This document shows positions 9,960 through 27,520 of a stretch of DNA of 64,000 bases, one piece after another (position 1 is the first letter of the stretch; each line of letters begins with the position of its first letter). The notes under the pieces are model-generated. The model had not been told where the DNA came from, did not search any database, and saw only the letters and a program-made list of their open reading frames with translations. The DNA comes from a virus. The stretch is from the IMG/VR virus record IMGVR_UViG_3300033067_000817. One strand, given 5' to 3'. The translations under genes and the position numbers were made by a program.

Positions 9960-10463
9960 CTAAATATTTAGTAAGCCATGATCAAATTCCCAATGACAAT
10001 TGGGACACAGTTGTATAACGTTAGATTTATGATTTACAATACCAATTTTAGTATTATCAGAGAAAGAAGAAATTGGAATACGATGAGCTAATTCAACATG
10101 CTTTGAATAGCCACAACTAGCACAAGGTAATTTAACAAGATCTCGATTCCAACTGCGATTTAAACCTCTTATATTAGCTGCTCTCCAAGAACGATGCTTT
10201 TTGGATACTGAGCGCTTAGAGTAAATCTCAGAAAGAGTCATATTCTCAATAAGATTACGTCTTGTAGTATTAGTTAGAATACAAGTATCACACAAAAAGC
10301 GCGTATTATAATTACGCTTATACTTGTATATCTTACTACATACTTTACAAGATCTATCTATTGGTGGATTTTTTTGTTTACCTCGATTATTGGTTTTTGC
10401 AGCACAACTACGAGAACAAAATCGAGGATTTATAGTGTCTTTAAGACATTCAACACAATTCAT
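9960..10463 (-). CDS. HNH homing endonuclease
   Basis: CPNCHWEFDHG HNH/zinc motif plus additional CxxC pairs. One of only two convincing minus-strand genes. Sits at the edge of the tRNA cluster. Confidence 0.7.
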   Translation of the reverse strand: MNCVECLKDTINPRFCSRSCAAKTNNRGKQKNPPIDRSCKVCSKIYKYKRNYNTRFLCDTCILTNTTRRNLIENMTLSEIYSKRSVSKKHRSWRAANIRGLNRSWNRDLVKLPCASCGYSKHVELAHRIPISSFSDNTKIGIVNHKSNVIQLCPNCHWEFDHGLLNI

Positions 10464-10477
10464 ATATCTGACTTTCT

Positions 10478-10563
10478 AGGTCCCGTTCCGAACACCAGCC
10501 TTCTAAGCTGGACCATAAAACGTTCGGTGGAGGTCAGAGGTTCGATTCCTCCGGGACCTACCA
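10478..10563 (+). ncRNA. atypical tRNA-like RNA (anticodon-arm candidate UCU, no recognisable D-arm)
   Basis: 7-bp acceptor pairing AGGTCCC/GGGACCT, discriminator A and encoded CCA. Anticodon stem-loop CCAGC-cttctaa-GCTGG. T-loop TTCGATT. D region aberrant. Confidence 0.35.
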
Positions 10564-10596
10564 GATATATTTCCGACTTGAACAATCAACTTACAA

Positions 10597-10638
10597 ACAC
10601 CTGGTAGGTCACAGGTTCGAATCCTGTCAGGTGTACCA
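10597..10638 (+). ncRNA. tRNA minihelix-like element (acceptor stem + T-arm only)
   Basis: ACACCTG..ACAGG-ttcgaat-CCTGT-CAGGTGT-A-CCA. Perfect 7-bp acceptor and T-arm, no D or anticodon arms. Confidence 0.35.
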
Positions 10639-10898: not shown

Positions 10899-11243
10899 AT
10901 GGAAAAGTTCATTCTTGGAGCTAATCGTGCACCCACACTGCTGCAAATGCGCGTGCTTGGTATGTGCGCTGTTGGCACATGGGGCGTGGAACTCGAATAC
11001 ATGTACCTTGCTCTCTATGGAGAGAAGGCTGCATACGGTACGATCTTCGGTGCAATCAACACGATGCGTAATCGTGGATGGCTCAAGCGTCACGAAGGTC
11101 GAGACAACAAAACGTGGCGTAGATACAGCATCACGCCGTCTGGGGCTCAAGCCTACGTGAGAGGCCAAAAGCTCTACAAGAGCGCAATCGAGGGTGAGAA
11201 GATTCGCAACAGAACCAAGACTCTACACATGGGAACTGTGTAG
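10899..11243 (+). CDS. PadR-like winged-helix regulator (tentative)
   Basis: GAINTMRNRGWLKRHEGRDNKTWRRYSITPSGAQAY resembles the PadR recognition helix/wing. Confidence 0.35.
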   Translation: MEKFILGANRAPTLLQMRVLGMCAVGTWGVELEYMYLALYGEKAAYGTIFGAINTMRNRGWLKRHEGRDNKTWRRYSITPSGAQAYVRGQKLYKSAIEGEKIRNRTKTLHMGTV

Positions 11244-11251
11244 AGTTTTTT
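11221..11251 (+). terminator. intrinsic terminator
   Basis: CTCTACACA-tgggaac-TGTGTAGAG followed by TTTTTT. Confidence 0.6.
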
Positions 11252-11265
11252 ACTCACCACGTAGA
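11247..11265 (+). repeat. 19-nt intergenic motif TTTTTACTCACCACGTAGA, copy 1
   Basis: Identical copy at 22804-22822. Both lie just after a terminator hairpin. Confidence 0.6.
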
Positions 11266-11272
11266 CGAACAC

Positions 11273-11415
11273 GGGCCTATAGCTCAATCAGTCAACAAAA
11301 CTCATTCGTTGACACTTCATTAGGCGAGTATCTCTATATGAAGTGAAGCAGAGCAAGTCTATAGAAACATGAGGTTTATAGACCGATGGAGGTGCAAGTC
11401 CTTCTAGGCTCACCA
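11273..11415 (+). ncRNA. long tRNA-like stable-RNA candidate E1 (143 nt)
   Basis: Ends pair as a 7-bp acceptor stem (GGGCCTA/TAGGCTC). T-arm-like GGAGG-tgcaagt-CCTTC adjacent to the 3' acceptor strand, discriminator A and encoded CCA. Three internal hairpins (GTCAAC/GTTGAC, CACTTCATA/TATGAAGTG, GTCTATA/TATAGAC). Confidence 0.4.
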
Positions 11416-11421
11416 AAATAC

Positions 11422-11563
11422 GGGCTTGTCGTATAAGTTAGATGGCCTTGACCTTAACATGACCATCATCCATGCTTGAACCCTAGGGCAACACAGCATG
11501 TAGCAATACGCCTCATTGTAAGGATGACAGGAAATCTAGGTGCGAACCCTAGCAAGCCCACCA
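11422..11563 (+). ncRNA. long tRNA-like stable-RNA candidate E2 (142 nt)
   Basis: GGGCTTG/CAAGCCC acceptor closure, CTAGG-tgcgaac-CCTAG T-arm-like hairpin, A-CCA end. Same size and layout as E1. Confidence 0.4.
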
Positions 11564-11566
11564 AAT

Positions 11567-11863
11567 ATGACACTTGTCACAACAAAAAGAGAACAGGACC
11601 TACGGCAATTCGAAGATATTGGTACAGGAACTATGTTTGAGTTCTGTGTATCACAAGACGCAAATGGCAGAGAAAACATCGTAGGATATGGTTTTCCTTC
11701 AAGAGACCATTTCAGCGTCTATAAACGCCTTGGTATTAAACATTCAGCTAACAAGTGTGAAGGTCCCAATGCATCAGACCTAAGCGCAAACCGCCTGGTG
11801 AAGATACCTTGTAGAATCACTGTATTGATCGTCAAGGAAGTCGAAATCACGTACAAAGTATGA
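11567..11863 (+). CDS. hypothetical protein
   Basis: ORF track start 11540 would overlap the RNA element, so the internal ATG at 11567 is preferred. Confidence 0.3.
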   Translation: MTLVTTKREQDLRQFEDIGTGTMFEFCVSQDANGRENIVGYGFPSRDHFSVYKRLGIKHSANKCEGPNASDLSANRLVKIPCRITVLIVKEVEITYKV

Positions 11864-12453
11864 ATACAATAGAAGTCACCACATCGGCGTTTATCTTAGG
11901 AACCATTGGTTTCTGGATAACTACAGGAATATTAACCATATGTATAGGCTTGTTGATTGAGAACAGTCACAAGACCTACTATGGTCTATGTTTCTTTGCA
12001 TTAGTAATATATGGATTTGCGCTGAATTACGGCGGCATTCCATTGTTACCAATAGTAAAAGCCCTGAGTTGGAGTGACTATATCAGAATTATACTATGGT
12101 ATATACTAATTGGTGTAATATGGCTGACGCTTAAGTGGTATGTGTATACCTATAAGTGGCGCCTGAAATACATCAAATATAAAGAAGAATACGCAAAGAA
12201 AGGCAAAGACTTCAAAGAATCTTGGGACCAATACAGAGAGCGTAGATACGATTTACGTACTGTACCAATGTTCAAAGACCACAGAGAAAAGTCAATAGAC
12301 TGGTGCATGTTGTGGCCATTCTCTGTTGTTGGTACTATCTTGTCTGATTGGCTTGAAGGATTTTTCAAGTGGATTGGAGATTTCCTAACTGGAGTCTTCA
12401 ATCAAATCAGCAAACACAACGCACGTGGCCTTGATGAATTCAAGGACGAATAA
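11860..12453 (+). CDS. putative membrane protein
   Basis: 197 aa with four hydrophobic segments. Start overlaps the upstream stop (ATGA). Confidence 0.4.
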   Translation: MNTIEVTTSAFILGTIGFWITTGILTICIGLLIENSHKTYYGLCFFALVIYGFALNYGGIPLLPIVKALSWSDYIRIILWYILIGVIWLTLKWYVYTYKWRLKYIKYKEEYAKKGKDFKESWDQYRERRYDLRTVPMFKDHREKSIDWCMLWPFSVVGTILSDWLEGFFKWIGDFLTGVFNQISKHNARGLDEFKDE

Positions 12454-12459
12454 GAATAA

Positions 12460-12536
12460 GAGAGGGTAGCTCAGTTGGTTAGAGCAACGGATTTTTAATC
12501 CGTAGGTCGAGGGTTCAACTCCCTCCCTTCTCACCA
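12460..12536 (+). tRNA. tRNA-Lys (anticodon UUU)
   Basis: Manual cloverleaf: GAGAGGG acceptor, GCTC-agttggtta-GAGC D-arm, ACGGA-tttttaa-TCCGT anticodon arm, GAGGG-ttcaact-CCCTC T-arm, A-CCA end. Confidence 0.85.
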
Positions 12537-12809
12537 GTATGGGAGCGGCATTCAGTAGGCCTACCCCATGTAGAGTTGAGTCGGATGCGTATGGCGTCAA
12601 CTTGAAAAAATTAACATGGCAGTAATCCTAAGGCATCAGGAACCTGCAAGAAAATAAGATGACATCCCAAACTGAGGATACGATTCATTTTTCGGGTGGA
12701 GACGATGCATAGTAATATGCATCCTTAGGGCAAGACAAAACCACTATAAGACTAGCCTAGTCCTCCATGATCTTGGATAAGAGGCTAACGTCCACCGTTT
12801 TTAGCACAC

Positions 12810-12914
12810 GCCGGGTTGCATGGTGCGACCAAGTATGAGTGCAGAGGTTCGAGTCCTCTACTGCAGGTCAGGTGACACTCCAAAGGCCGGTGGTTCAAGT
12901 CCACAAGCCCGGCA
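12810..12914 (+). ncRNA. tRNA-like element E3 (105 nt)
   Basis: GCCGGGT/GCCCGGC acceptor closure, two T-loop-like hairpins (AGAGG-ttcgagt-CCTCT and GGTGG-ttcaagt-CCACA), no CCA. Confidence 0.3.
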
Positions 12915-13006
12915 CCTACAATAGAAGTCAACACAATTCAACAACGAGGTGTGGCATGAGCACAGTGCATTACCCCAGTGACCTGGGCGAGTTGACTTCT
13001 ATTTAT

Positions 13007-13158
13007 GCTCAGGAAGCATTGCTGGTGATGTATCAGAATGGTAACACGTTCACATGGAGTCCGGGCTCGGCCAACGTTATAACTTTGTAGTGTGTACAGC
13101 TGCAAAGTCGAACTTATATCCATTCGAAAAGGCAGTTCAAATCTGTCCCTGAGCTCCA
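13007..13158 (+). ncRNA. tRNA-like element E4 (152 nt)
   Basis: GCTCAGG/CCTGAGC perfect 7-bp closure, GGCAG-ttcaaat-CTGTC T-arm, T-CCA end, D-arm-like GCAT-tgctggtg-ATGT near the 5' end. Confidence 0.35.
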
Positions 13159-13294
13159 ATACACGTCCTTAGTCAGTATAATGTCAATACTTCTTTGAAA
13201 CTTGTGCTTTAGCAACTATGTTAACTAAGCTGAAGCCTAGTTGTAGATGAACTATCGCTAGCTATATCTAAAACGAAAAGTTATCAAAGAGATT

Positions 13295-13564
13295 GTGGTA
13301 AAAATCCACACTAGGGGCACCAATCCAATGACAAGCAAGAAAAGACTAAGTCCCACTAAGCGTCATAACCTTGCACTCACAGAAGATACTCAGCAAAAGA
13401 TTAGAGATATCATACTGACAATGGGTGCAGCAAACACGGAGGAAGCAGTCCGAAGAGCAATCAATCTATATCACATGATGATTAGGATTGATGAAAAGGA
13501 TGAGATCTTCGTACGGAAAGGCCTAAATGGTCATCCACTACGATTGAGATTTGTAATTACGTAG
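13295..13564 (+). CDS. small ribbon-helix-helix-like protein (tentative)
   Basis: 89 aa. The HNLALTEDTQQKIRDIILTMGAANTEEAVRRAINLY pattern is typical of CopG/Arc RHH. Confidence 0.3.
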   Translation: MVKIHTRGTNPMTSKKRLSPTKRHNLALTEDTQQKIRDIILTMGAANTEEAVRRAINLYHMMIRIDEKDEIFVRKGLNGHPLRLRFVIT

Positions 13565-13654
13565 AAGCTGCGATGACTGGTGGTATCGCGTAGGACTGTA
13601 AATCCTATCCCTTTGTGGTGAACATTGTGAGTTCGAATCTCACCTTCTACACCA
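13561..13654 (+). tRNA. tRNA-Tyr (anticodon GUA), class II with long variable arm
   Basis: GTAGAAG/CTTCTAC acceptor, TAGGA-ctgtaaa-TCCTA anticodon arm, about 19-nt variable arm, GTGAG-ttcgaat-CTCAC T-arm, A-CCA. Confidence 0.75.
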
Positions 13655-13670
13655 AAACAATGGTGTATAT

Positions 13671-14096
13671 ATGACAAACATGCTTATCAAAGCGATTGAA
13701 ATCGCTCTCTGCTTTCACGGACGACAGCTTGACAAAGCAGGCATGCCGTATATACTTCATCCATTGCACGTAATGGATAAAGTCAATGGTATCGAAGCAA
13801 AGATTGTTGCAGTGCTACATGACACAGTTGAAGACACAAACTTAACACTTGAAGCACTTGCCAATGCTGGTTTCGATGACACTATTGTTAACGCCATTGA
13901 TGCTATTTCCAAGCGCAAAGGTGAAACAAACGAGGACTACTGGACTCGTGTAAAGTCCAATAAACTTGCATTGCAAGTAAAACTAGTAGACATAGCTCAC
14001 AATTCATCAGAAGAACGGCTTGCAGCTCTTTCTGATGAGCAAGCTACTTATCTGCGTGATAAGTATGCAAAAGCAAAAGCATTTCTACTAGCATAG
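13671..14096 (+). CDS. RelA/SpoT-type HD-domain (p)ppGpp hydrolase (small alarmone hydrolase)
   Basis: FHGRQLDKAGMPYILHPLHV, AVLHDTVEDT and VKLVDIAHNS match the SpoT hydrolase H..HD..D core (HxGQxR..PYIxHPLxVA, LHDvvEDT, KLADRLHNMRT). Confidence 0.7.
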   Translation: MTNMLIKAIEIALCFHGRQLDKAGMPYILHPLHVMDKVNGIEAKIVAVLHDTVEDTNLTLEALANAGFDDTIVNAIDAISKRKGETNEDYWTRVKSNKLALQVKLVDIAHNSSEERLAALSDEQATYLRDKYAKAKAFLLA

Positions 14097-14100
14097 TACA

Positions 14101-14150
14101 CGGCGGTGTGGCGTAATGGTAGCCGCACGAGGCTACTTCCTACGATGATG
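14101..14150 (+). ncRNA. tRNA 5'-half-like fragment (possible disrupted tRNA)
   Basis: Acceptor-like start plus GCG-taatggtagc-CGC D-arm. No anticodon arm or T-arm can be completed. Abuts and overlaps the end of the HNH gene. Confidence 0.25.
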
Positions 14151-14624
14151 AGTGGGTGTTTGTGTATGACAATTAGGACACAAGAATCGTAGATTTGTAG
14201 CTTCATTATTCAGAAAATCACCATCAATATGGTCTATTTCTAATACAATAGGCTTACCATTCCATAAGTCATGTAGTCCACACCAATCACAAACATGACT
14301 TCTTCCTATAGAAAGAAGTGCACGGCGTAGTAATTTTGTTTTTTGCTTATGCTGATGAACTTCTCGCCTTACTAGAATTTCTTCTGGCTTAAGTTGAGGA
14401 CAAAAAACATTTTTATTCCAAGCACTGCCTTTAAAGTGTGATGTATCAATCTTAAATGATTGAATACATCGTTTAATATAAGTTTGCGTACCACCTGCTT
14501 GTTTAAGCCCTAAAGTACGCAAAACATTAGCATAGCTAGTTGAAGCTTTAACAGCTTGCTCCAGAACAAGACGGGTATATTTTATGGAAGACATAGTAAC
14601 CTCCATAGCTTTTCCGTCTACCAT
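14133..14624 (-). CDS. HNH homing endonuclease
   Basis: CDWCGLHDLWNGKPIVLEIDHIDGDFLNNEATNLRFLCPNCH is a classic HNH motif. Inserted between tRNA genes. Confidence 0.7.
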   Translation of the reverse strand: MVDGKAMEVTMSSIKYTRLVLEQAVKASTSYANVLRTLGLKQAGGTQTYIKRCIQSFKIDTSHFKGSAWNKNVFCPQLKPEEILVRREVHQHKQKTKLLRRALLSIGRSHVCDWCGLHDLWNGKPIVLEIDHIDGDFLNNEATNLRFLCPNCHTQTPTHHRRK

Positions 14625-14625
14625 G

Positions 14626-14701
14626 CCTAGGTAGCCAAATTGGTATAGGCAACACGCTTAGGACGTGTAATTTATGGGTTCGAATCCCATTCTAGGCACC
14701 A
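14626..14701 (+). tRNA. tRNA with anticodon UAG (Leu-type anticodon) but class I short variable arm
   Basis: GCCTAGG/TCTAGGC acceptor, GCC-aaattggtata-GGC D-arm, ACACG-cttagga-CGTGT anticodon arm, 5-nt variable loop, ATGGG-ttcgaat-CCCAT T-arm, A-CCA. Confidence 0.55.
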
Positions 14702-14709
14702 CCAACAAT

Positions 14710-15051
14710 ATGAAAGAAGTCAAAGACATGTACTGGCGTAACGTTGGCATTCTTGTGCTTGTGCTTGCTTCGATCATAGGTCTATCAGCATTTGCTGTTT
14801 TGAGATCTGGATCCACCAAGCATGAGATCAATACAGTAGCGGCCATGGTTACTAAGAACTACACTAGAATCAGCGCCGACACTGTGTCGTACATCGTGGA
14901 CACAGATCACGGTACGTTCCAGACATACGATCATACGTATGTTCAGGATTTGCAACCAGGACATAGGTATGTATTCTCATTGGAAGGAGAATATCATACG
15001 ACTATGTTCTCGCAATACTTCCCAATCATAGTGAGAGTAGTCCCACAATGA
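14710..15051 (+). CDS. secreted/membrane-anchored protein, paralog A
   Basis: Start moved to the ATG after the tRNA. N-terminal hydrophobic segment. C-terminal HRYVFSLEGEYHTTMFSQYFPIIVRVVPQ is paralogous to the next gene. Confidence 0.4.
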   Translation: MKEVKDMYWRNVGILVLVLASIIGLSAFAVLRSGSTKHEINTVAAMVTKNYTRISADTVSYIVDTDHGTFQTYDHTYVQDLQPGHRYVFSLEGEYHTTMFSQYFPIIVRVVPQ

Positions 15052-15410
15052 AAAAGGGATTCACACTAGTAGAGCTAATAGTAGTTATATGCTTGCTAGT
15101 CATATTCCTACTATTCTGCATTCCATATTGCAGTGGAGGTGTAGGTGGCCTTGGTAAACATGATACGGTAACCTGTATCGTGAAATCAAAGCATATTGAT
15201 ACCAGAGGTGGCAAAAGCCATTATATGGTAACAACAACTCAAGGCACATTCGAAGTTGACAATGGCCCAGCACTAGGAGTTTGGAATGCCGATGAGATAT
15301 ACGGCAATATCCTAGTAGAGCATAAGTATCTCTTTGAGATAGCTGGTGCCAAGTTCGTCAATCCAATAGCTCAGTATTATCCATATATAATACGGGCTGA
15401 GGAACAGTAG
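15048..15410 (+). CDS. prepilin-type (type IV pilin-like) N-terminal domain protein, paralog B
   Basis: MKKGFTLVELIVVICLL is a class III signal / N-methylation motif (GFTLVE). C-terminal HKYLFEIAGAKFVNPIAQYYPYIIRAEEQ is paralogous to the previous gene. Confidence 0.45.
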   Translation: MKKGFTLVELIVVICLLVIFLLFCIPYCSGGVGGLGKHDTVTCIVKSKHIDTRGGKSHYMVTTTQGTFEVDNGPALGVWNADEIYGNILVEHKYLFEIAGAKFVNPIAQYYPYIIRAEEQ

Positions 15411-15424
15411 CACACGGTAGAGTG

Positions 15425-15500
15425 GGGGTATAGGCAAATTGGCAAAGCCAGTTGAATTAAGATCAATTGTTTGCGAGTTCGACTCTCGCTGCCCCTACCA
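15425..15500 (+). tRNA. tRNA with anticodon UAA (Leu-type anticodon), short variable arm
   Basis: GGGGGTA/TGCCCCT acceptor (two G-U), GGC-aaattggcaaa-GCC D-arm, GTTGA-attaaga-TCAAT anticodon arm, GCGAG-ttcgact-CTCGC T-arm, A-CCA. Confidence 0.5.
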
Positions 15501-15852
15501 CTTCCGAACAATACTTCCAAAGATTGGAAGTAAACAGAACTCCTTGTAGCAATACAAGTGAGGCCTGCCACAAGCAGGAACTTAAGACTGAGTGTCTTGT
15601 GAGAGATTGATGTTCTAGAGCGTGGTTGCAAAAGGGAGTTTGGCACTCAACACCCTGTCAATTGCAACGCACATATACATGTCATGTAGGAATACATGAA
15701 ACGAGCTTAAAGTTTACTCGTTAAATAACAAACTATAGGCTAGGGCTTGGAGCAATGAAATCATGCCTATGATGGAGCTCCCTGTCCAACATTCTAACGC
15801 CGCCTGCCACTATGGACTCCCTTAGCAGGGCTTGTAAGGTTGAGAGCCTATT

Positions 15853-15884
15853 AGCTCAGTAACGAAAGTTACTGGGCTTTTTTA
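15853..15884 (+). terminator. intrinsic terminator
   Basis: CTCAGTAAC-gaaa-GTTACTGGG followed by CTTTTTT. Confidence 0.55.
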
Positions 15885-16172
15885 ATTGCATAGTGTTGGT
15901 GTTGCCAAAAACATGGCGATGCCATTTACGGGCTAGTAGATAAAATGCCTCAACACCATTCTACTAACTCGTATTTAGTACAAATAAGTTCAAGTAGCTG
16001 AGACGCAACGGTGTATTGCTAGTACATCAACTAGGCTGTTTGGGACAAGTCTAGCTAAAGAAGTGCGTAGTGTCTTGCCGATTGGCGCTAAGACAATGGA
16101 ATCAGGATATTTGTCACTAGCAAGTTTGACAATATCTCTTGGGTTCAAATCCCAAGCTACTCGTTTAAACAG

Positions 16173-16308
16173 ATCAGCAAGTTGTAAAGTAGGACGGAAC
16201 GGATCTGTATCTCATTCTACAGATAAAACTACTTGCCGAAACTAGCAGTGTAAGCCATTCATCGGGTTGCAGAGAGCACTGTTGTGGGTTTGAGTCCCAC
16301 TGCTGATC
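16173..16308 (+). ncRNA. tRNA-like element E5 (136 nt)
   Basis: ATCAGCA/TGCTGAT perfect 7-bp closure, GTGGG-tttgagt-CCCAC T-arm adjacent to the 3' strand, internal hairpin ATCTGTA/TACAGAT. Confidence 0.35.
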
Positions 16309-17006
16309 TTCTCTAACAAAAAGCGTTTTTTCTTTTGTGTCTTTTGTCTCGATCAAGAGTAGAGAGTGTGTGAAAACTGTCCAATGGCACTTAATCAATG
16401 CCTATAGCTTTTCATCTTACAGGAATGAAAAGCCGAAATTAAACGGCATACCTACCTATCAAGGTGAATACAGGTCTGATTAACCAACAAGATAGGACTC
16501 TCTATTCTCCCTACAAAGTCGTGGCAGCGACTATAAATAGCCTTTTAGGCTGCCAGCGCTTCTCCATACAAGGAGAAGGTGAGGGGTCATGAAGCGTCCT
16601 CTGTTACTCTTGGTGGAGTAACAAGATCCTTTTCATAGAGAGTCGAGTCGGGGGATTCCCCGGCTTTGGCATCACCACTCTGTGAAGTAATCGCTGCGAT
16701 AACGCAGATAACAGTTGCATCTTGCTAGTTCCATGCAACTGTTGATTCACTGACTCAAAATAGGAACTAGCACGTACACAAAGCTCAGCGATTTATATTG
16801 CTGGGCTTTATTCATTGCCGAGGTTGTAGGCCAAGCGCTCCAACTGTTCTTGAATATCAGTCAGGAGAGAGGATGTCTAGGGTGAAATTGCATACCTTAG
16901 ATACTGTTCTATACCACGACCATGCAATGCAATGTGCATGCGAGTATAGATTTTCAACAGAGACCATTGGTACAGTCTTCCATCAACCGGCCTTTTTTAG
17001 TACATT

Positions 17007-17083
17007 GGGACTTTAGCTCAGTTGGTTAGAGCGTGCCACTCATAATGGCTTGGTCGTCGGTTCAAGTCCGACAGGTCCCACCA
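17007..17083 (+). tRNA. tRNA-Met or Ile2 (anticodon CAU)
   Basis: GGGACTT/AGGTCCC acceptor, GCTC-agttggttaga-GAGC D-arm, TGCCA-ctcataa-TGGCT anticodon arm, GTCGG-ttcaagt-CCGAC T-arm, A-CCA. Confidence 0.85.
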
Positions 17084-17136
17084 ATCAAAGCTTATAAGCT
17101 TTAAAGTACACATAGCATGGCAAAGGGTCGTGCTCT

Positions 17137-18045
17137 GTGTACTTTTTTTTTGAAAGGAACTCAATGGGAGCTGCTAGTTGGTCTAGTACAGACTGGGACA
17201 CGCACAGAAGTGCAACCTCAGGCAAGACGGTCAAAGAGAATTTCAAGAGTACTACTATCAAGGACTCTTTGAATCCTACCAAGTTCAAATTCAGAGAAGC
17301 AAGAGACTCTGATGTGAACCCTGAATCTACGCCTATCATTTTGGGCAGTGATGTCACTGGCTCAATGGGCGAGATGGCCAACAAGATCATCACTGAAGAT
17401 CTTGGCAAGGTCATGGAACGCTTGTACGCATACAAGCCTGTCACGAATCCAGCCATATGCTGTATGGCTATTGGTGACATCACTTGTGACCAAGCGCCTG
17501 TTCAGGCAACGCAATTCGAGTCTGATATTAGACTCGCAGAGCAAATGAGAGATTTCTACATCGAAGGCCATGGTGGTGGCAATGATGGAGAATCTTACCC
17601 CATAGCGTGGCTATTCGCTTTGGCTAAGGTCAAAGCAGACATCCACAAGAAGCGTGGCAAGAAGGGCTATCTCTTCACCATTGGTGATGAAGCTCCTCTC
17701 GAAACAATGAAGCGTGAACATATCAACCAGTTCCTAGATATAGGAGCTCAAGCTGATATGGATGCCAAAGTCCTGTACGATCAAGTGAGCAGAGATTGGA
17801 ATATCTTCCACTTGATGATCAAGCCTGTTCTTCATCAAAGACCTGAAGAACGCTGGAGAAAGATCATTGGCAATCATTTGATCATGCTCCAAGACTTGAG
17901 CTGTCTAGCTGAAGTCATCACTGCTGCAATCGAATACAACGAGGGCATAAGCACTGACATAGTTGTATCCAGATACAGCGGGGATTCCAGAAAGACTGTG
18001 ATCGACATCACTTCCCAAGTGTCAAAGCCTTTATTGCTTAACTGA
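17137..18045 (+). CDS. von Willebrand factor A (vWA) domain protein
   Basis: LGSDVTGSMGEM MIDAS-type DxTGSM motif at the expected position of a vWA fold. Confidence 0.5.
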   Translation: MYFFFERNSMGAASWSSTDWDTHRSATSGKTVKENFKSTTIKDSLNPTKFKFREARDSDVNPESTPIILGSDVTGSMGEMANKIITEDLGKVMERLYAYKPVTNPAICCMAIGDITCDQAPVQATQFESDIRLAEQMRDFYIEGHGGGNDGESYPIAWLFALAKVKADIHKKRGKKGYLFTIGDEAPLETMKREHINQFLDIGAQADMDAKVLYDQVSRDWNIFHLMIKPVLHQRPEERWRKIIGNHLIMLQDLSCLAEVITAAIEYNEGISTDIVVSRYSGDSRKTVIDITSQVSKPLLLN

Positions 18046-24494: not shown

Positions 24495-24550
24495 TGATCT
24501 TTTGTTGATTTTCCTTTCGTTTTTTGCTAATAATCTGTGTTGATTACATA

Positions 24551-24650
24551 TTCAATCCAGGACGTCGTGAGTTCGAGTCTCACCGAGAGCTTGCTCTTGT
24601 AACTCAGTTGGTAGAGTGCCCGGCCAAACCAAGTCAACACATTTGCACAA
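24551..24650 (+). ncRNA. permuted tRNA-like module Y-a (Y-RNA/YrlA-like candidate)
   Basis: GTGAG-ttcgagt-CTCAC T-arm, then acceptor-like hairpin CGAGAG-cttg-CTCTTG, then D-arm ACTC-agttggta-GAGT. The anticodon-stem position is left open. Bracketed by motif copies. Confidence 0.45.
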
Positions 24651-24851
24651 TTAATCTATACTGATTACATTTTTGACATAAAATAGCTGTCTCAAAAACA
24701 GCTTTAAAATCAGTATCTTTAACCCCTGGGTAGTATAACTCTTAATACCTCAGTTTGTGATTTCGCATTTCCCCCCACAGGAACAAGCAACCACAAATTG
24801 TGATGCTGGTGAAAATCCAGCCCTGGGGACCACCTCGCACAACAGAACAAA

Positions 24852-25073
24852 ATGTTTACTCTTAAAAAGAAACAACCGAAGTCTGTAGATAGTATTATTG
24901 CTCAATTTGCCACTGTGGTCAATGAGCTAGAACAAGCAAGCTTACATCATGATTCTCAATATGAAGCTATTGCTACTAGAATACAAGACCTAGAGCGTGC
25001 AAAGACTGGACATGAAGAAGAAGGCAAGCGTGCCAGATCTATCATGCAGAAAGTTAAAGCACTTATCAGCTAA
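24852..25073 (+). CDS. small hypothetical protein (73 aa)
   Basis: Helical, Lys/Glu-rich ORF embedded in the ncRNA array. Coding status uncertain. Confidence 0.3.
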   Translation: MFTLKKKQPKSVDSIIAQFATVVNELEQASLHHDSQYEAIATRIQDLERAKTGHEEEGKRARSIMQKVKALIS

Positions 25074-25160
25074 GGAAGATTAACCCTAATTGGTAAGGGC
25101 CTGGCCTAGAAAGTCAGCGGCTTCACGGCCTTGAGGGTTCGAGTCCTTCATCTTCCACCA
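25074..25160 (+). tRNA. class II tRNA (Ser/Leu-type long variable arm; anticodon read as AGA, uncertain)
   Basis: GGAAGAT/ATCTTCC acceptor, CCC-taattggtaa-GGG D-arm, CTGGC-ctagaaa-GTCAG anticodon arm, about 15-nt variable arm, GAGGG-ttcgagt-CCTTC T-arm, A-CCA. Confidence 0.5.
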
Positions 25161-25170
25161 ATCAGATCAT

Positions 25171-25247
25171 GCTACAATAGCTCAGCTAGATAGAGCGCTG
25201 GCTTGAAACACCAGAGGTCGGAGGTTTAATTCCTTCTTGTAGCACCA
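25171..25247 (+). tRNA. tRNA-Phe (anticodon GAA)
   Basis: GCTACAA/TTGTAGC acceptor, TA-GCTC-agctagata-GAGC D-arm, anticodon loop ttGAAac, GGAGG-tttaatt-CCTTC T-arm, A-CCA. Confidence 0.75.
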
Positions 25248-25272
25248 AAGCATTAATCTGTATTGATTACAT

Positions 25273-25440
25273 TATCACTTGGAGATCGTGATGTAGGTTC
25301 GATTCCTACACTCTATTAATAGAGTTCGTCTAACGGTAGGACCCGTAAAAAATCAATACTCTTTTAGCACAATCCTGAAAGACCCGGTTCAGCCGTGGTT
25401 GCCACAAACGGTGAAAAAAGCTAGTGGCCAGGATCCAATT
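25273..25440 (+). ncRNA. permuted tRNA-like module Y-b (Y-RNA/YrlA-like candidate)
   Basis: ATCAC/GTGAT hairpin, GTAGG-ttcgatt-CCTAC T-arm, ACTCTA-ttaa-TAGAGT closed acceptor-like helix, GTC-taacggtag-GAC D-arm, then about 100 nt with further hairpins. Between motif copies 3 and 4. Confidence 0.45.
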
Positions 25441-25460
25441 TTAATCTACGTTGAATACAT

Positions 25461-25563
25461 TCACTATTAATGAAGAGAACCGGGTTCGATTCCCGGAGGA
25501 TCCACCATTTAGGGGTCCTTAGCTCAATGGTAGAGCGTAAAAACTTCAACGTTTTTCGTACAA
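25461..25563 (+). ncRNA. permuted tRNA-like module Y-c
   Basis: CCGGG-ttcgatt-CCCGG T-arm, AGGATCC-accatttag-GGGTCCT acceptor-like helix (loop contains ACCA), GCTC-aatggta-GAGC D-arm, AAAAAC-ttcaac-GTTTTT hairpin. Between motif copies 4 and 5. Confidence 0.4.
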
Positions 25564-25855
25564 TTAATCTATGTTGATTACATTTTTCTGCAAAAAAAGG
25601 CCCCGGGGTTCGACTCCCTGGTTTATCCGGTTGAGGCTCAAACAATCAACATTCTTTTGAACAATTAATCTGCATTGATTACATCCCTTATTTTTTTGGA
25701 AAATCCAATCAATGCTCTTAACGTACAAGTAATCTGTAAAGACTACATGGTTAAGTTGGTTCTAATCCAACACGGGTATTGCAAAATATCCGGTTAGGTG
25801 AAATTCCTAACGAAAGTCTTTACAATTCATCTTTAAATCTGTTTGGATACAAGTA

Positions 25856-27520
25856 ATGAGAAAACTAAACACTTCACGAGTCATAGGTCAAAAGGGCGAT
25901 CTTCAGTTTGACGGTTCAGGTAATCACACTATCGACCTAGTCGCAAATGGTGCTGACAAGCTAATCCAAAAGAACGACAAATCAGTTGTACTACGTTATA
26001 AGAAACTAGTACAAGACTCTTATCAACAAGACCCGGCTCTCACCCTGAAGATTGGTAGATACTTCAGAGATGATGAGAATGGTCAGAACCTAAAAGAGCA
26101 GCCGCTTCTGATGCTAGCTGTGCTTGACGGCCAGATCACTGATGAAGAAATTCAATCAGTTCTGACTGTTCATCCGCTAAGAACTCAAGATGGCGCTAGA
26201 CCTCTGGATGAAACACCTCTGCTTGAGCTTGTCAAGATATTGGCATGGCACAAGTATCTGAACAGCAAAGATTCAAAGCTTTCCCCCGATATGTTATCGG
26301 TATGGGCTAAGATCTTCAAGGTCAAAGCTGATGAAAACATTGACAACCTACTTGCTGAAGTCATCAAGCTAAAGAACACTCGTGTTCAGTATGACACAGA
26401 AAACAAGCTACAAGTTGGTATTGTTGATGTTATTGGTATTATTAGGAACCGTGCTGATTTTCCTAAGGCTGTCAAAGACGAATACGCGGGCTACCTTTAT
26501 CCTCTCAAGAGAGGTCAAAACTATAAAGCACGCCCTGTTAGCGAAGTAGCCAAGAAGTGGAACAAGTTCTTCAAGGGTGAACTATCTGAGAATGAAGTTC
26601 CCCAAGGTATTGACTTCCTTAAGGCTCTCAATAGCAAGAACAAGGCCGCTTGCCTTAAGCTCCTTCAAGAGGGTAAGATTAGCAATGCACAGCTTAAGAT
26701 TAACCTTAAGAACATTGTTGAGCTAGTTGGCGAAGATGAAGTTACCAAGCTAATCACCAAGCGCAACTGGAATCTATTCCCTCACGACATTCTTGCAATG
26801 GGTATGGCATTCTATCAAGGAACTGCTCATACTGGCAAGTCTGCCGCTAAAGCAAACATGGCAGAGATCATGTTTGGTAAGCTCCTAGCTGAGTACAAGA
26901 CCAAAGTGAAGAACTCGGTCCTGTTCTTTGCTGACGTTTCTGGTAGCATGTGCCAGCCCTTGTCGAAGAAGAGTACGATCAATCAAGACGACTTTGCCTT
27001 CTTCATGAGCTTCTTTGCTGCCAATGTTAGTGACCATAAGGTCCTAGCACAGTTTGGTTCTACTGCACACCTTATGGAGTGCTCTAAGAATCCGACGTTA
27101 AAAGAATTCATTGAGACACCCAGAGCAGGCGACTGCAGTACAAATATGTACGGGTGTGTCGTTGAAGTTGCAAACTACTTCAAGAAGGTTAAGAAGCAAG
27201 CCCCCAAGGTCTTAGCCTTCATAAGTGATATGCAATTTGATAGCTGCGCACGTCCTCACTATTCCAGCAATAAGTCTAATACGGTATCAGCAGCATTGCT
27301 CTACTATGAACAGACTACTGGTGTCAAACCACAATTGGTTTTCTGGAATGTCGCAGCATCAACCGTTCCTGCTACAGAGCAAGACGGCGTTCTTTTGTTA
27401 TCTGGCTTCAGTGCCAATACCGCAGACATCGTCTTCGGTATAATCAATACATCGACGGAAGAAAACCGCCAGATGTCTACTCAAGACCTCCTGAATAGTA
27501 TTAACAATACTTATCAGTAA
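25856..27520 (+). CDS. rsr: Ro60/TROVE-domain protein with C-terminal vWA (Rsr-like)
   Basis: EQPLLMLAVLDGQ parallels Ro60 QEPMLFALAICSQ. C-terminal blocks VLFFADVSGSM, AGDCSTNM, VLAFISDMQF, QLVFWNVAAS and LLLSGFSANTADIV are collinear with the Ro60 vWA/MIDAS region (LLAVDVSASM, AGGTDCSLPM, VFIVFTDNETF, LIVCGM, LDMCGFDTGALDVI). Confidence 0.75.
   Translation: MRKLNTSRVIGQKGDLQFDGSGNHTIDLVANGADKLIQKNDKSVVLRYKKLVQDSYQQDPALTLKIGRYFRDDENGQNLKEQPLLMLAVLDGQITDEEIQSVLTVHPLRTQDGARPLDETPLLELVKILAWHKYLNSKDSKLSPDMLSVWAKIFKVKADENIDNLLAEVIKLKNTRVQYDTENKLQVGIVDVIGIIRNRADFPKAVKDEYAGYLYPLKRGQNYKARPVSEVAKKWNKFFKGELSENEVPQGIDFLKALNSKNKAACLKLLQEGKISNAQLKINLKNIVELVGEDEVTKLITKRNWNLFPHDILAMGMAFYQGTAHTGKSAAKANMAEIMFGKLLAEYKTKVKNSVLFFADVSGSMCQPLSKKSTINQDDFAFFMSFFAANVSDHKVLAQFGSTAHLMECSKNPTLKEFIETPRAGDCSTNMYGCVVEVANYFKKVKKQAPKVLAFISDMQFDSCARPHYSSNKSNTVSAALLYYEQTTGVKPQLVFWNVAASTVPATEQDGVLLLSGFSANTADIVFGIINTSTEENRQMSTQDLLNSINNTYQ

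What the first reader, a model, noticed from the sequence alone, without database searches (positions are those of the whole stretch)
11273..16308. Five 105-152-nt tRNA-like long elements with perfect acceptor closure and T-arm but expanded bodies
E1 (11273-11415), E2 (11422-11563), E3 (12810-12914), E4 (13007-13158) and E5 (16173-16308) each begin and end with 7 complementary nucleotides. A canonical T-arm lies immediately before the 3' strand, and most have a discriminator plus encoded CCA. Their interiors are 60-90 nt too long for a tRNA and fold into 2-3 extra hairpins. E1 and E2 are adjacent, nearly equal in size and share layout. They are too short for group I introns. They resemble the small stable RNAs in the phage T4 tRNA cluster (species 1 and 2) that mature via tRNA-processing enzymes. 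They could also be decoys for anticodon nucleases or tRNA-binding proteins.
Basis: partly seen in the sequence, partly recalled or inferred. Interest (0 to 1): 0.7.

Follow-up and report, generated by a model that had tools for sequence, protein, structure and literature searches.

The report
tRNA-shaped RNAs in phage tRNA island
A phage tRNA gene cluster holds several 105-152-base genes that keep only the top half of a tRNA (acceptor stem, T-arm, mostly CCA) around a rebuilt body; they are neither normal nor intron-bearing tRNAs, most resemble the unexplained small stable RNAs of phage T4, and their function is unknown.

Summary
E1, E2 and E4 have a 7-bp acceptor closure, a T-arm directly before the 3' strand, and a discriminator plus CCA. 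E3 and E5 are weaker: E3 ends in ACC only, and E5 has no CCA and an atypical T-loop. The closures are not chance.

None is an ordinary tRNA, with or without an intron. ARAGORN, Rfam and in-silico deletion scans all fail to recover a canonical anticodon arm.

No orthologues of E1-E5 exist in any collection searched, so covariation is limited to the E1/E2 pair. These two keep every shared helix paired despite many differences.

Three points of context matter:
- The island is being remodelled by HNH endonuclease-plus-tRNA cassettes that leave tRNA half-relics.
- A neighbouring element of the same kind, A (10478-10563, anticodon loop of tRNA-Arg UCU), is conserved in a distant relative with two compensatory pairs.
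- The phage also encodes a Ro60 homologue preceded by seven Y-RNA-like genes.

Best reading (confidence 0.45): these are tRNA-derived RNAs, cut out by the host tRNA-processing enzymes, that cannot decode and act as tRNA mimics, like T4 RNA C/D. Main rival (0.3): neutral relics of cassette traffic.

Verdict: a new variant of a known kind, of moderate interest.

The parts
11273..11415 (+). E1. A tRNA-shaped element: 7-bp acceptor stem, 4-bp D-stem (GCUC/GAGC) enclosing two hairpins of about 65 nt in all, a 9-bp hairpin before the T-arm, T-arm GGAGG-UGCAAGU-CCUUC, and ACCA.
   Evidence: the minimum-free-energy fold equals the tRNA-constrained fold; Rfam tRNA 27.1 bits, below the cut-off; no ARAGORN call.
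11422..11563 (+). E2. Same architecture as E1: D-stem GUAU/AUAC enclosing two hairpins, T-arm CUAGG-UGCGAAC-CCUAG, and ACCA. Its 3' end lies 5 nt before the ATG of ORF 11569-11863.
   Evidence: With the D-loop insert trimmed, ARAGORN sees a cloverleaf, but its anticodon arm is defective.
12810..12914 (+). E3. 8-bp closure plus a 4-bp T-stem, ending ACC-U. Its internal hairpin AGAGG-UUCGAGU-CCUCU is a near-copy of the T-arm of element A.
   Evidence: (17 nt at 94% identity to A).
13007..13158 (+). E4. 7-bp Watson-Crick closure, T-arm GGCAG-UUCAAAU-CUGUC, and UCCA. The interior is only partly structured. One hairpin, UCGAA-CUUAUAUCCA-UUCGA, carries a UAU anticodon-like triplet in a 10-nt loop.
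   Evidence: the centroid fold keeps only the acceptor stem, the T-arm and one 10-bp hairpin.
16171..16310 (+). E5. 9-bp closure, T-arm GUGGG-UUUGAGU-CCCAC, no CCA.
15991..16163 (+). E6, not in the finding. T-arm CUUGGG-UUCAAAU-CCCAAG and a closure AAGUAGC/GCUACUC with one mismatch; no CCA. It sits directly upstream of E5.
   Evidence: ARAGORN calls it only at 80% of its threshold with intron mode.
10478..10563 (+). A, not in the finding. A non-canonical tRNA-Arg(UCU)-like gene: 8-bp acceptor stem, 4-bp T-stem, canonical anticodon loop CUUCUAA, no D-arm. Instead, a long-range helix (positions 11-16 with 45-50) encloses the anticodon arm. It ends ACCA.
   Evidence: An orthologue in relative L158 differs at 5 positions, 4 of them forming two compensatory pairs. 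The HNH gene and A are shared as one cassette at 76-81% nucleotide identity.
10564..10638 (+). B. The 3' remnant of a tRNA gene (variable loop, T-arm, CAGGUGU, ACCA) left behind after A. It begins with the family motif TATTTCCGnCT.
   Evidence: 87.5% identity to the 3' half of tRNA-Arg in L154. An analogous remnant follows A in L158.
24724..24832 (+). E7, not in the finding. A 105-nt tRNA-shaped element with a normal-sized D-arm, a long 9-bp-plus arm in the anticodon position, T-loop UGAAAAU, and ACCA. It lies inside the Y-RNA array.
   Evidence: (Rfam tRNA 26.9 bits with a 38-nt insert).
9960..10463 (-). HNH-type endonuclease gene of the HNH+A cassette.
   Evidence: weak HNH_2 hit; shared with L158.
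14133..14624 (-). HNH endonuclease gene. It lies between a stretch that looks like a tRNA 5' half (14102-14132) and the complete tRNA-Leu(UAG) at 14625-14701.
   Evidence: (Pfam HNH and HNH_3). The same layout, 5' half then minus-strand ORF then variant tRNA, occurs in L159 and L155.
24530..25824 (+). Array of seven Y-RNA-like genes: about 24536-24641, 24657-24717, 25259-25360, 25447-25553, 25570-25653, 25671-25716 and 25735-25824. Each starts with nnnnUGAUUACAU. Three of them carry a circularly permuted tRNA-like domain.
   Evidence: 9 motif matches, none of 100 shuffles reached 9; Rfam YrlA at 42.1 and 36.9 bits, E 1.5e-7 and 4.9e-6, below the cut-off of 69; 7/7-paired terminal stems that differ in sequence in all seven. 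The array is conserved upstream of the homologous gene in relatives.
25856..27520 (+). Ro60 (TROVE plus vWA) homologue.
   Evidence: AlphaFold2 model, mean pLDDT 82.9; the top 12 Foldseek matches in the PDB are all Ro60/TROVE, E 1e-10 to 9e-7.

Best explanation
E1, E2 and E4, and less surely E3 and E5, are tRNA-derived genes that kept only the top half of a tRNA. That half is the 7-bp acceptor stem stacked on a T-arm, plus a discriminator base and, in three cases, CCA. The D-arm and anticodon half has been replaced by other hairpins.

Inferred mechanism:
1. They are transcribed with the tRNA island.
2. The acceptor/T-arm minihelix with its 3' NCCA is what RNase P and the 3'-end trimming and CCA-adding enzymes recognise, so the host tRNA-processing enzymes should cut them out at both ends.
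3. This should leave stable RNAs of 105-150 nt.
4. They have no 7-nt anticodon loop in tRNA geometry, so they probably cannot decode.
5. They would then act as tRNA mimics that occupy or divert tRNA-binding proteins. E2 may also define the 5' end of the mRNA that starts 5 nt downstream.

They are the counterpart of T4 RNA C and RNA D. They belong to a wider tRNA-mimicry repertoire in this phage, which also has seven Y RNAs and a Ro60 homologue.

Shown here: the anatomy, non-random closure, failure of every tRNA and intron test, and maintained pairing between E1 and E2. Inferred: transcription, processing, stability and function.
For: - Closure and T-arm are far beyond chance.
- Three of the five carry an encoded NCCA, like all seven ARAGORN-called tRNAs of this window.
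- No canonical tRNA is called in any mode. No single or double deletion restores one consistent anticodon arm. They are therefore not recently interrupted tRNA genes.
- E1 and E2 share the same length (139 and 138 nt to the discriminator), the same layout (a D-stem enclosing two hairpins, a third hairpin, a UGC T-loop), the same leader (AAYAC-GGGC) and the same trailer (CACCAAA). They differ at 3 acceptor pairs, 3 of 4 D-stem pairs and 2 T-stem pairs, yet every pair still forms. Their inserts show no detectable sequence similarity.
- In both E1 and E2, the loop of the first inserted hairpin is complementary to the loop of the hairpin before the T-arm, using different sequences (CUCAU/AUGAG in E1; CCUUA..CAUG with UCAU..UAAGG in E2). 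58 and 42 of 1000 shuffles did as well.
- Element A, of the same genome and the same kind, is conserved in a relative whose proteins are only about 40-50% identical, with two compensatory pairs. Non-canonical tRNA-shaped genes are therefore maintained in this phage family.
- Relatives carry comparable long elements: L155 2587-2697, and L159 9722-9840 with a hairpin inserted in its D-loop.
- T4 provides a precedent: two adjacent stable RNAs of 119 and 139 nt in the tRNA cluster, one with a T-arm.
Against: - No orthologue of any of E1-E5 was found, so there is no real covariation test.
- E1 and E2 might be two different tRNA genes that were invaded independently. In that case their differences would not be compensatory changes.
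- Folding z-scores are unremarkable for E2, E4 and E5, and much of the E4 interior is not confidently structured.
- In relative L155, tRNA genes that are plainly broken still keep perfectly complementary acceptor halves, so closure alone does not prove function.
- An intrinsic terminator lies 20 nt upstream of E1 (11220-11252), and no promoter was identified.
- No expression data exist.
Confidence: 0.45

Rival explanations
1. Neutral relics. E1-E5 are tRNA genes wrecked by repeated insertion and imprecise loss of homing-endonuclease cassettes in a hypervariable tRNA island. They keep matching acceptor strands and a T-arm only because the damage is internal. They have no function of their own, although they may still be transcribed and trimmed.
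For: - The island holds two HNH genes next to tRNA fragments.
- B is a 3' remnant left after the HNH+A cassette, and L158 has a different remnant after the same cassette.
- L155 shows an outer tRNA split by an inner tRNA-Lys, and another split by tRNA-Met plus an HNH gene that has lost its anticodon 3' strand. Both still have perfect acceptor complementarity.
- L159 has a 5' tRNA half, then a minus-strand ORF, then a variant tRNA-Lys.
- E3 contains a copy of A's T-arm.
- Homing endonucleases in phage tRNA clusters are established (T4 SegB, PMC2330249).
Against: - Removing one or two blocks never restores a canonical tRNA. The interiors are therefore old or heavily rebuilt, yet all five closures and T-arms are intact.
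- E1 and E2 share an architecture without sharing insert sequence.
- No HNH gene or cassette motif (TATTTCCGnCT) adjoins E1, E2, E4 or E5.
Confidence: 0.3
2. Working tRNAs of unusual architecture. Some of the elements, E4 in particular, are aminoacylated and decode despite their expanded bodies, as element A (Arg UCU) may do.
For: - A has a canonical anticodon loop (CUUCUAA). Its 6-bp long-range helix plus 5-bp anticodon stem reproduce the length of the normal D-stem/anticodon-stem stack. It is conserved with compensatory changes. It is also the only tRNA-Arg(UCU)-like gene found in this window or in the L158 locus, whereas the other relatives examined (L153, L154, L155/L156, L159) carry canonical tRNA-Arg(UCU) genes.
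- Relatives carry ARAGORN-called tRNAs with extra arms, for example a 94-nt tRNA-Ile(UAU) in L159.
- E4 shows CUUAUAU in a hairpin loop, and the window has no tRNA-Ile(UAU).
Against: - No element E1-E5 has a 7-nt loop with U33 and a purine at position 37 on a 5-bp stem in the anticodon position. The E4 loop is 10 nt, the E1 loop 9-13 nt, and the E2 loop lacks U33.
- ARAGORN and Rfam reject all of them.
Confidence: 0.1
3. tRNAs with a new kind of small intron. The extra 60-90 nt would be spliced out to give ordinary tRNAs.
For: The E1 and E2 inserts sit at one defined place in the D-loop and are closed by the D-stem. With that insert trimmed, E2 is called a cloverleaf.
Against: - The inserts are too short for group I or group II introns, and Rfam finds neither.
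- The tRNA-Tyr of the island has a long variable arm, which is the bacterial type. A bacterial host would lack the archaeal-type splicing endonuclease (plus general knowledge).
- No RNA ligase or splicing endonuclease was seen among the 36 ORFs scanned.
- Even after the best deletions the anticodon arm stays defective, and the called identity changes from one variant to the next.
Confidence: 0.03
4. Mainly processing punctuation. The elements exist to direct RNase P and RNase Z cuts that separate and shape neighbouring mRNAs, and the excised RNA is a by-product.
For: ORFs start very close behind tRNA-type 3' ends in this island: 5 nt after E2, 9 nt after tRNA-Leu (14701 to 14711), 16 nt after tRNA-Tyr and 23 nt after B, with no room for a leader.
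Against: E1, E3, E4 and E5 have no ORF directly downstream. A bare minihelix would be enough, so this does not explain the 60-90-nt bodies or the shared E1/E2 architecture.
Confidence: 0.1

Closest known systems
Phage T4 species 1 and species 2 stable RNAs (rnaC, 139 nt; rnaD, 119 nt)
   Same: They are encoded inside a phage tRNA cluster as an adjacent pair 6 nt apart, as E1 and E2 are. Sizes fall in the same 119-139 nt range. rnaC has a canonical T-arm (CCGGG-UUCGAAU-CCCGG) near its 3' end. Their function is still unknown (my own knowledge).
   Different: There is no sequence similarity. The ends of T4 rnaC do not form a clean 7-bp acceptor stem with an encoded CCA in the annotated sequence. 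E1, E2 and E4 are much more tRNA-like at their ends, and E1 and E2 keep a D-stem.
YrlA-type bacterial and phage Y RNAs (Rfam RF02553; Chen et al. 2014, PMC4201824)
   Same: They are tRNA mimics built from an acceptor-like stem, a T-arm and a D-arm. They cannot decode. M. smegmatis YrlA is cleaved by RNase P and receives CCA (PMC4201824). This genome carries seven Y-RNA-like genes next to a Ro60 homologue.
   Different: In YrlA the tRNA-like domain is circularly permuted: the RNA ends form the Ro60-binding stem, and the acceptor stem is capped by a loop. In E1-E5 the RNA ends form the acceptor stem. E1-E5 lack the nnnnUGAUUACAU motif, give no YrlA hit, and lie 9-14 kb from the Ro60 gene.
tRNA gene fragments left by homing-endonuclease cassettes in phage tRNA clusters (T4 SegB, PMC2330249)
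   Same: The setting is the same: free-standing HNH genes among the tRNA genes, with 5' and 3' tRNA halves beside them in this window and in its relatives.
   Different: E1, E2, E4 and E5 have both halves in register and are closed. They have no adjoining endonuclease gene, and deleting the insert does not turn them back into a tRNA.
Non-canonical tRNAs: D-arm-lacking mitochondrial tRNAs, and 8/4 or 9/3 'allo-tRNAs' (my own knowledge)
   Same: Element A and E3 split the 12 stacked base pairs as 8 (acceptor) plus 4 (T-stem). A lacks a D-arm but keeps a canonical anticodon loop.
   Different: E1-E5 have no canonical anticodon loop. The topology of A, a helix between positions 11-16 and the variable region that encloses the anticodon arm, is not one I can assign to a described class. 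I did not test this against the literature.
tmRNA
   Same: Its 5' and 3' ends form an acceptor stem with a T-arm and CCA around a large insert.
   Different: ARAGORN finds no tmRNA, and Rfam finds none over E1-E5. There is no G3-U70 pair (E1 has G3-C70, E2 has G3-C70). The elements are a third the size of a tmRNA, and no tag reading frame is evident.

Membership tests
Canonical tRNA (Rfam RF00005 / ARAGORN) | Score at or above the curated threshold for the cloverleaf model | tested here: not met
   E1 scores 27.1 bits against a cut-off of 29, with two large insertions. E2-E5 give no hit even at E up to 10. ARAGORN calls none of them at its default threshold.
Canonical tRNA (Rfam RF00005 / ARAGORN) | 5-bp anticodon stem with a 7-nt loop, U33 and a purine at position 37 | tested here: not met
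   Constrained and free folds give loops of 9-13 nt (E1), a loop without U33 (E2), a T-arm copy (E3), a 10-nt loop (E4) and no candidate (E5).
Canonical tRNA (Rfam RF00005 / ARAGORN) | 7-bp acceptor stem, T-arm, discriminator and CCA | tested here: met
   Met in full by E1, E2 and E4. E3 has ACC only and an 8/4 split. E5 has no CCA.
Intron-containing tRNA (group I intron in the anticodon loop, or any single removable insert) | An intron family match, or a canonical tRNA once the insert is removed | tested here: not met
   No intron family in Rfam. ARAGORN intron mode at default threshold finds nothing. In 40,659 single-deletion variants there were no calls for E1, E3, E4 or E5, and inconsistent calls for E2. 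Double deletions give many different 'anticodons'.
T4 species 1/2 stable RNAs (rnaC/rnaD) | Encoded within a phage tRNA cluster, 119-139 nt, as an adjacent pair | tested here: met
   T4 annotation and sequence compared with E1/E2, which are 143 and 142 nt and 6 nt apart.
T4 species 1/2 stable RNAs (rnaC/rnaD) | Sequence homology to rnaC or rnaD | tested here: not met
   Only 7-9-nt word matches, E 0.06 or worse.
T4 species 1/2 stable RNAs (rnaC/rnaD) | Accumulates as a stable RNA matured by tRNA-processing enzymes | not testable with these tools
   Needs RNA data or RNase P assays.
YrlA / Y RNA (RF02553), asked of E1-E5 | Terminal stem formed by the RNA ends that carries the conserved Ro60-binding strand, with a permuted tRNA-like domain | tested here: not met
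   No YrlA hit in 11000-17500 at E up to 10. The family motif is absent there: the only match in that range is a 3-mismatch hit inside the HNH gene. In E1-E5 the RNA ends form the acceptor stem.
YrlA / Y RNA (RF02553), asked of the units at 24530-25824 | Rfam gathering score of 69 bits | tested here: not met
   42.1 and 36.9 bits (E 1.5e-7 and 4.9e-6). I therefore call them Y-RNA-like and do not file them as curated family members.
YrlA / Y RNA (RF02553), asked of the units at 24530-25824 | Encoded next to a Ro60 gene; covarying terminal stem; T-arm, acceptor-like stem-loop and D-arm in permuted order | tested here: met
   Ro60 fold of ORF 25856-27520. Seven 7/7-paired terminal stems with different sequences. 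Permuted order read. The same arrangement occurs in relatives.
tmRNA | ARAGORN or Rfam tmRNA model; G3-U70; tag reading frame | tested here: not met
   No tmRNA call. E1 and E2 have G3-C70.
Relic of a tRNA gene split by an HNH cassette | An endonuclease gene and/or a complete replacement tRNA between two matching tRNA halves | tested here: not met
   Met by L155 897-1143 and 1970-2582, and in part by window 14102-14701 (a 5' half, the HNH gene and a complete replacement tRNA-Leu, but no matching 3' half) and by A/B. E1, E2, E4 and E5 contain neither an endonuclease gene nor a replacement tRNA. E3 contains only a T-arm copy.

The most novel reading that the evidence does not exclude
E1 and E2, together with A and E7, would represent an undescribed class of phage RNAs built on a tRNA scaffold. 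The acceptor/T-arm half would be kept so that host tRNA enzymes mature and stabilise the RNA. The D-arm and anticodon half would be replaced by purpose-built modules: in E1 and E2, two hairpins enclosed by the D-stem, one of which kisses the loop of a third hairpin. Such RNAs would act against host tRNA-targeting defences, or together with the phage's own Ro60/Y-RNA particle. A sharper version of the same reading is that A is a working tRNA-Arg with a new fold, in which the D-stem is formed with the variable region and encloses the anticodon arm.
Probability: 0.15. Interest if true: 0.75.

Novelty: new variant of a known kind. Interest (0 to 1): 0.5.

Why it matters
Phage T4's two tRNA-cluster stable RNAs have had no known function for about fifty years (my own knowledge). 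A second, unrelated phage lineage with clearer examples (perfect acceptor stem, T-arm, encoded CCA, rebuilt body) suggests that tRNA-shaped non-decoding RNAs are a recurrent phage device and not a T4 oddity. It also offers sharper substrates for testing what they bind.

The setting adds weight. The same genome invests in a Ro60 homologue with seven Y RNAs and carries a conserved non-canonical tRNA-Arg, so it is a natural system for studying tRNA mimicry.

The finding has a practical side too. Standard tRNA finders miss all of these elements. In my IMG/VR sample, 35 of 101 well-formed T-arms followed by an acceptor strand and ACCA were not called by ARAGORN.

If the elements are only relics, they still document how endonuclease cassettes churn phage tRNA islands.

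Tried and rejected
- **Group I or group II introns and known ribozymes inside the elements.** Rfam shows none. The only ribozyme in the region is a pistol ribozyme at 16517-16584, outside the elements.
- **Archaeal-type bulge-helix-bulge introns.** Set aside, because the island's tRNA-Tyr has the bacterial long variable arm.
- **The UGC T-loop as a family signature.** Rejected, because it is common in ARAGORN-called phage tRNAs and in tRNA-Tyr and tRNA-Leu.
- **E1-E5 as Y RNAs.** They have no Y-RNA motif and no YrlA hit.
- **Homologue hunts that found nothing:**
  - GenBank phages by megablast and blastn.
  - IMG/VR by an exact E1 3' end, an exact anticodon-arm stretch of element A and a Y-array pattern.
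  - IMG/VR and metagenome contigs by a degenerate E1/E2 3'-end pattern. Hits were ordinary or unrelated tRNA-type genes.
  - Neighbouring genes: the nearest PurZ-like homologue is 44% identical, HD-domain relatives are at most 42% identical and not syntenic, and ORF 11860-12453 has no homologue at all.
- **Population variants.** The Logan contig is identical to the window over the 27.4 kb compared. L157 is identical to L155 apart from one base.
- **ARAGORN at 80% threshold with introns.** It 'calls' E2, E4, E6 and E7, but it also makes many calls on the opposite strand, so I gave this no weight.
- **Folding z-scores.** Too modest to argue either way.
- **Promoter scan.** Fewer sigma-70-like sites than in shuffles, so it was uninformative. 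The phage encodes its own multisubunit RNA polymerase.

Full report
**What the window is.** It is a phage genome fragment. It encodes subunits like those of a multisubunit RNA polymerase, a DNA polymerase III alpha subunit, ribonucleotide reductase, RecA, a DNA ligase, a retron-type reverse transcriptase and an adenylosuccinate-synthetase-like protein. The same sequence exists as a 71-kb Logan contig that is identical over the 27.4 kb compared. The lineage is isolated: the nearest homologue of the adenylosuccinate-synthetase-like protein among 5.8 billion proteins is 44% identical. ARAGORN finds seven tRNAs, five of them between 12.4 and 17.1 kb.

**Checking the observation.** I wrote a scanner for a 7-bp closure, a 5-bp T-stem and a T-loop of the form T[TG][CT]RANN placed directly before the 3' strand. 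For lengths of 95-200 nt it returns E1, E2, E4 and E5 on the + strand and nothing on the - strand. Dinucleotide shuffles average 0.32 hits. The island is rich in T-arms, so I also asked a conditional question: with the T-arm and 3' strand fixed, how often does a shuffled upstream 200 nt supply a matching 5' strand? The answer is 2-8% per element, so five closures cannot be chance.

- E1 and E2 end in ACCA and E4 in UCCA, like the true tRNAs of the window.
- E3 ends ACC-U. It is best drawn with an 8-bp acceptor stem and a 4-bp T-stem.
- E5 closes over 9 bp, has the T-loop UUUGAGU and has no CCA.
- Free folding reproduces the tRNA-like frame for E1, E3, E4 and E5.
- More elements of the kind lie outside the reported list: A (10478-10563), E6 (15991-16163) and E7 (24724-24832).

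**Are they tRNAs, with or without introns?** No.

- Rfam gives E1 27.1 bits against the tRNA model, below the cut-off of 29 and with two large insertions. It gives nothing for E2-E5 even at E = 10, and no intron or ribozyme family over any element.
- ARAGORN at its default threshold calls none, with or without intron search.
- I deleted every possible block of 3-119 nt from each element (40,659 variants). ARAGORN found no tRNA for A, E1, E3, E4 or E5, and a scatter of mutually inconsistent calls with defective stems for E2.
- Trimming the D-loop inserts of E1 and E2 to normal size and also deleting within the next hairpin gives calls in a few per cent of variants, but with many different 'anticodons'. 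This shows only that the frame is tRNA-like and that no natural anticodon arm is present.

**Anatomy of E1 and E2.** Both read, from 5' to 3': acceptor stem (7 bp), two bases, a 4-bp D-stem, a D-loop replaced by two hairpins (about 65 nt), one base, a third hairpin, a 3-4-nt spacer, a T-arm with a UGC T-loop, the acceptor 3' strand, A, CCA. They are 139 and 138 nt long to the discriminator, lie 6 nt apart, and share the leader AAYAC and the trailer CACCAAA.

| Helix | E1 | E2 |
|---|---|---|
| Acceptor stem | GGGCCUA/UAGGCUC | GGGCUUG/CAAGCCC |
| D-stem | GCUC/GAGC | GUAU/AUAC |
| T-stem | GGAGG/CCUUC | CUAGG/CCUAG |

Every pair is kept despite changes at eight pairs, while the inserts have no detectable similarity. 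If the two are old paralogues, this is the signature of selection on structure. If they are two different tRNA genes altered independently, it is not. I cannot decide between these with two sequences.

In both elements the loop of the first inserted hairpin can pair with the loop of the third hairpin through different sequences (58 and 42 of 1000 shuffles did as well). This hints at a loop-loop contact that would bury the 'anticodon-position' loop.

**The island is being remodelled.** Homologues of the Ro60-like protein led to syntenic relatives: L153, L154, L155/L156/L157, L158 and L159-L162. Their tRNA islands show how tRNA halves arise.

- In L155, a 5' tRNA half (GGGTCTA...) is separated from its matching 3' half (...TAGACCC-ACCA) by a complete tRNA-Lys.
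- Also in L155, another 5' half (GGGCAGT...) is separated from its 3' half (...ACTGCCC-ACCA) by a complete tRNA-Met and an HNH gene. This outer gene has lost its anticodon 3' strand.
- L159 has a 5' half, then a minus-strand ORF, then a variant tRNA-Lys.
- The window has the same layout at 14102-14701 (5' half-like stretch, HNH gene, tRNA-Leu) and at 9960-10638 (HNH gene, A, 3' remnant B).
- The HNH+A block is shared with L158 at 76-81% nucleotide identity, although the rest of the two genomes is only about 30-55% identical at the protein level. In L158 it is followed by a different tRNA 3' remnant.

These are homing-endonuclease cassettes of the kind known from the T4 tRNA cluster (SegB, PMC2330249). 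This makes 'relic' a serious rival for E1-E5, and E3, with its embedded copy of A's T-arm, looks partly like one. Against the relic reading for E1, E2, E4 and E5: they contain no endonuclease gene, no replacement tRNA and no cassette motif; deleting the insert does not restore a tRNA; and yet closure and T-arm are intact in all of them.

**One element of the kind has comparative support.** A and its L158 orthologue differ at five positions. Four of these form two compensatory pairs: G3-C80 becomes A-U in the acceptor stem, and C16-G45 becomes U-A in a long-range helix (11-16 with 45-50) that encloses the anticodon arm. A has the canonical loop CUUCUAA, an 8-bp acceptor stem with a 4-bp T-stem, and no D-arm. 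The window and the L158 locus show no canonical tRNA-Arg(UCU), whereas the other relatives examined do. A may therefore be a working tRNA-Arg of unusual fold. At the least, it shows that non-canonical tRNA-shaped genes are maintained in this family. Relatives also carry long closed elements:

- L155 2587-2697: an 8/4 frame with a 7-bp stem and the loop AUUAAAA.
- L159 9722-9840: a hairpin inserted in the D-loop and an 8-nt 'anticodon' loop.

**The tRNA-mimicry context.** Between 24530 and 25824 lie seven units that each start with nnnnUGAUUACAU. In each, the 7 nt formed by the variable bases and the following UGA (AGA in the seventh unit) pair perfectly with a downstream complement, a different sequence in every unit.

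- Three units contain a T-arm, a capped acceptor-like stem and a D-arm in circularly permuted order.
- Two units hit Rfam YrlA (42.1 and 36.9 bits, E 1.5e-7 and 4.9e-6), below the gathering score.
- The gene just downstream (25856-27520) folds as Ro60: the AlphaFold2 model has a mean pLDDT of 82.9, and the twelve best PDB matches are all Ro60/TROVE proteins, including the Thermus phage phiLo Ro60.
- The same motif and YrlA hits precede the homologous gene in relatives.

This matches published knowledge that YrlA-type Y RNAs mimic tRNA and sit next to Ro60 genes in bacteria and phages, and that one of them is cut by RNase P and receives CCA (PMC4201824). E1-E5 are not Y RNAs: they lack the motif, give no YrlA hit, and their ends form the acceptor stem. 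E7 lies inside the array, so the phage clearly makes tRNA look-alikes of several designs.

**Comparison with T4.** T4 rnaD (119 nt) and rnaC (139 nt) are adjacent, 6 nt apart, at the end of the tRNA cluster next to the segB homing endonuclease gene. rnaC has a canonical T-arm. The layout matches E1/E2. The sequences do not match, and the T4 RNAs lack the clean 7-bp acceptor stem with encoded CCA.

**Verdict.** The elements are real and tRNA-derived. They are neither tRNAs nor intron-bearing tRNAs.

- Most likely (0.45): they are excised by the tRNA-processing enzymes as stable, non-decoding tRNA mimics.
- Main rival (0.3): they are neutral relics of cassette traffic.
- Smaller possibilities: unusual working tRNAs (0.1), mainly mRNA punctuation (0.1, not exclusive of the best reading) and a new kind of intron (0.03).

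No expression or orthologue data exist, so function is inferred, not shown.

Noticed in passing
window 24530-25824 and 25856-27520: Seven Y-RNA-like genes lie directly upstream of a Ro60 (TROVE plus vWA) homologue. They share the repeat nnnnUGAUUACAU and have covarying 7-bp terminal stems. Three carry a permuted tRNA-like domain, and two give sub-threshold Rfam YrlA hits. The arrangement is conserved in relatives L153, L155, L158 and L159. In the fourth unit the acceptor-loop region encodes ACCA.
   Followed up: yes
window 10478-10563; L158 2019-2104: Element A is a non-canonical tRNA-Arg(UCU)-like gene. It has an 8-bp acceptor stem, a 4-bp T-stem and no D-arm, and a long-range helix encloses the anticodon arm. 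Two compensatory pairs separate the two orthologues. It travels with an HNH gene as a cassette.
   Followed up: yes
L155 897-1143 and 1970-2582; L159 3573-4043; window 14102-14701: These are nested or split tRNA genes. A 5' half and a matching 3' half are separated by a complete tRNA, with or without an HNH gene. In L155 897-1143 the ends of the insert form an 8-bp helix (GCATCTAG/CTAGATGC) next to the anticodon stem.
   Followed up: partly
window 10566-10578 and 14604-14616; L155 1075, 2537 and 9443; L154 5500; L159 2525: A conserved linear motif, TATTTCCGnCT, follows the inner tRNAs or HNH genes. In L155 9442-9506 and L159 2505-2587 it begins a roughly 61-nt mini tRNA-like element without a D-arm that ends in ACCA, directly after tRNA-Arg.
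   Followed up: partly
window 16517-16584: Pistol ribozyme (Rfam, 55.1 bits, above the gathering score). It sits in a 1.5-kb non-coding stretch between E5 and tRNA-Met.
   Followed up: no
window 12918-13005; L155 2706-2770: Long-stem closed hairpin elements (13-bp and 12-bp closing helices; folding z-score -3.4 for the window copy) lie between tRNA-like elements in both phages.
   Followed up: no
window 12537-12809 and 15501-15990: Long non-coding stretches with no Rfam match. An intrinsic terminator lies at 15853-15885.
   Followed up: no
window 18053-19237 and 13671-14096: An adenylosuccinate-synthetase-like gene (possibly PurZ) and a small HD-domain gene. Together they might indicate a 2-aminoadenine (Z) genome. 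I did not examine this.
   Followed up: no
window 50302-51444: A retron-type reverse transcriptase (NCBIfam retron St85 family, E 2.4e-43, below the cut-off) in a phage genome. I did not look for an associated non-coding RNA.
   Followed up: no
IMG/VR loci L033-L152, for example L093 6050-6206, L059, L095, L133: 101 well-formed UGC-type T-arms are followed by an acceptor strand and ACCA. ARAGORN does not of them, and about ten of those close at 98-224 nt. Several have a tRNA-Leu-like D-arm and very long extra arms. Long tRNA-like genes missed by tRNA finders may therefore be common in phages.
   Followed up: partly
window 25074-25160: ARAGORN calls a tRNA-Ser with anticodon AGA. Rfam scores it at only 34 bits. 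This is an unusual anticodon for a bacterial-type tRNA.
   Followed up: no
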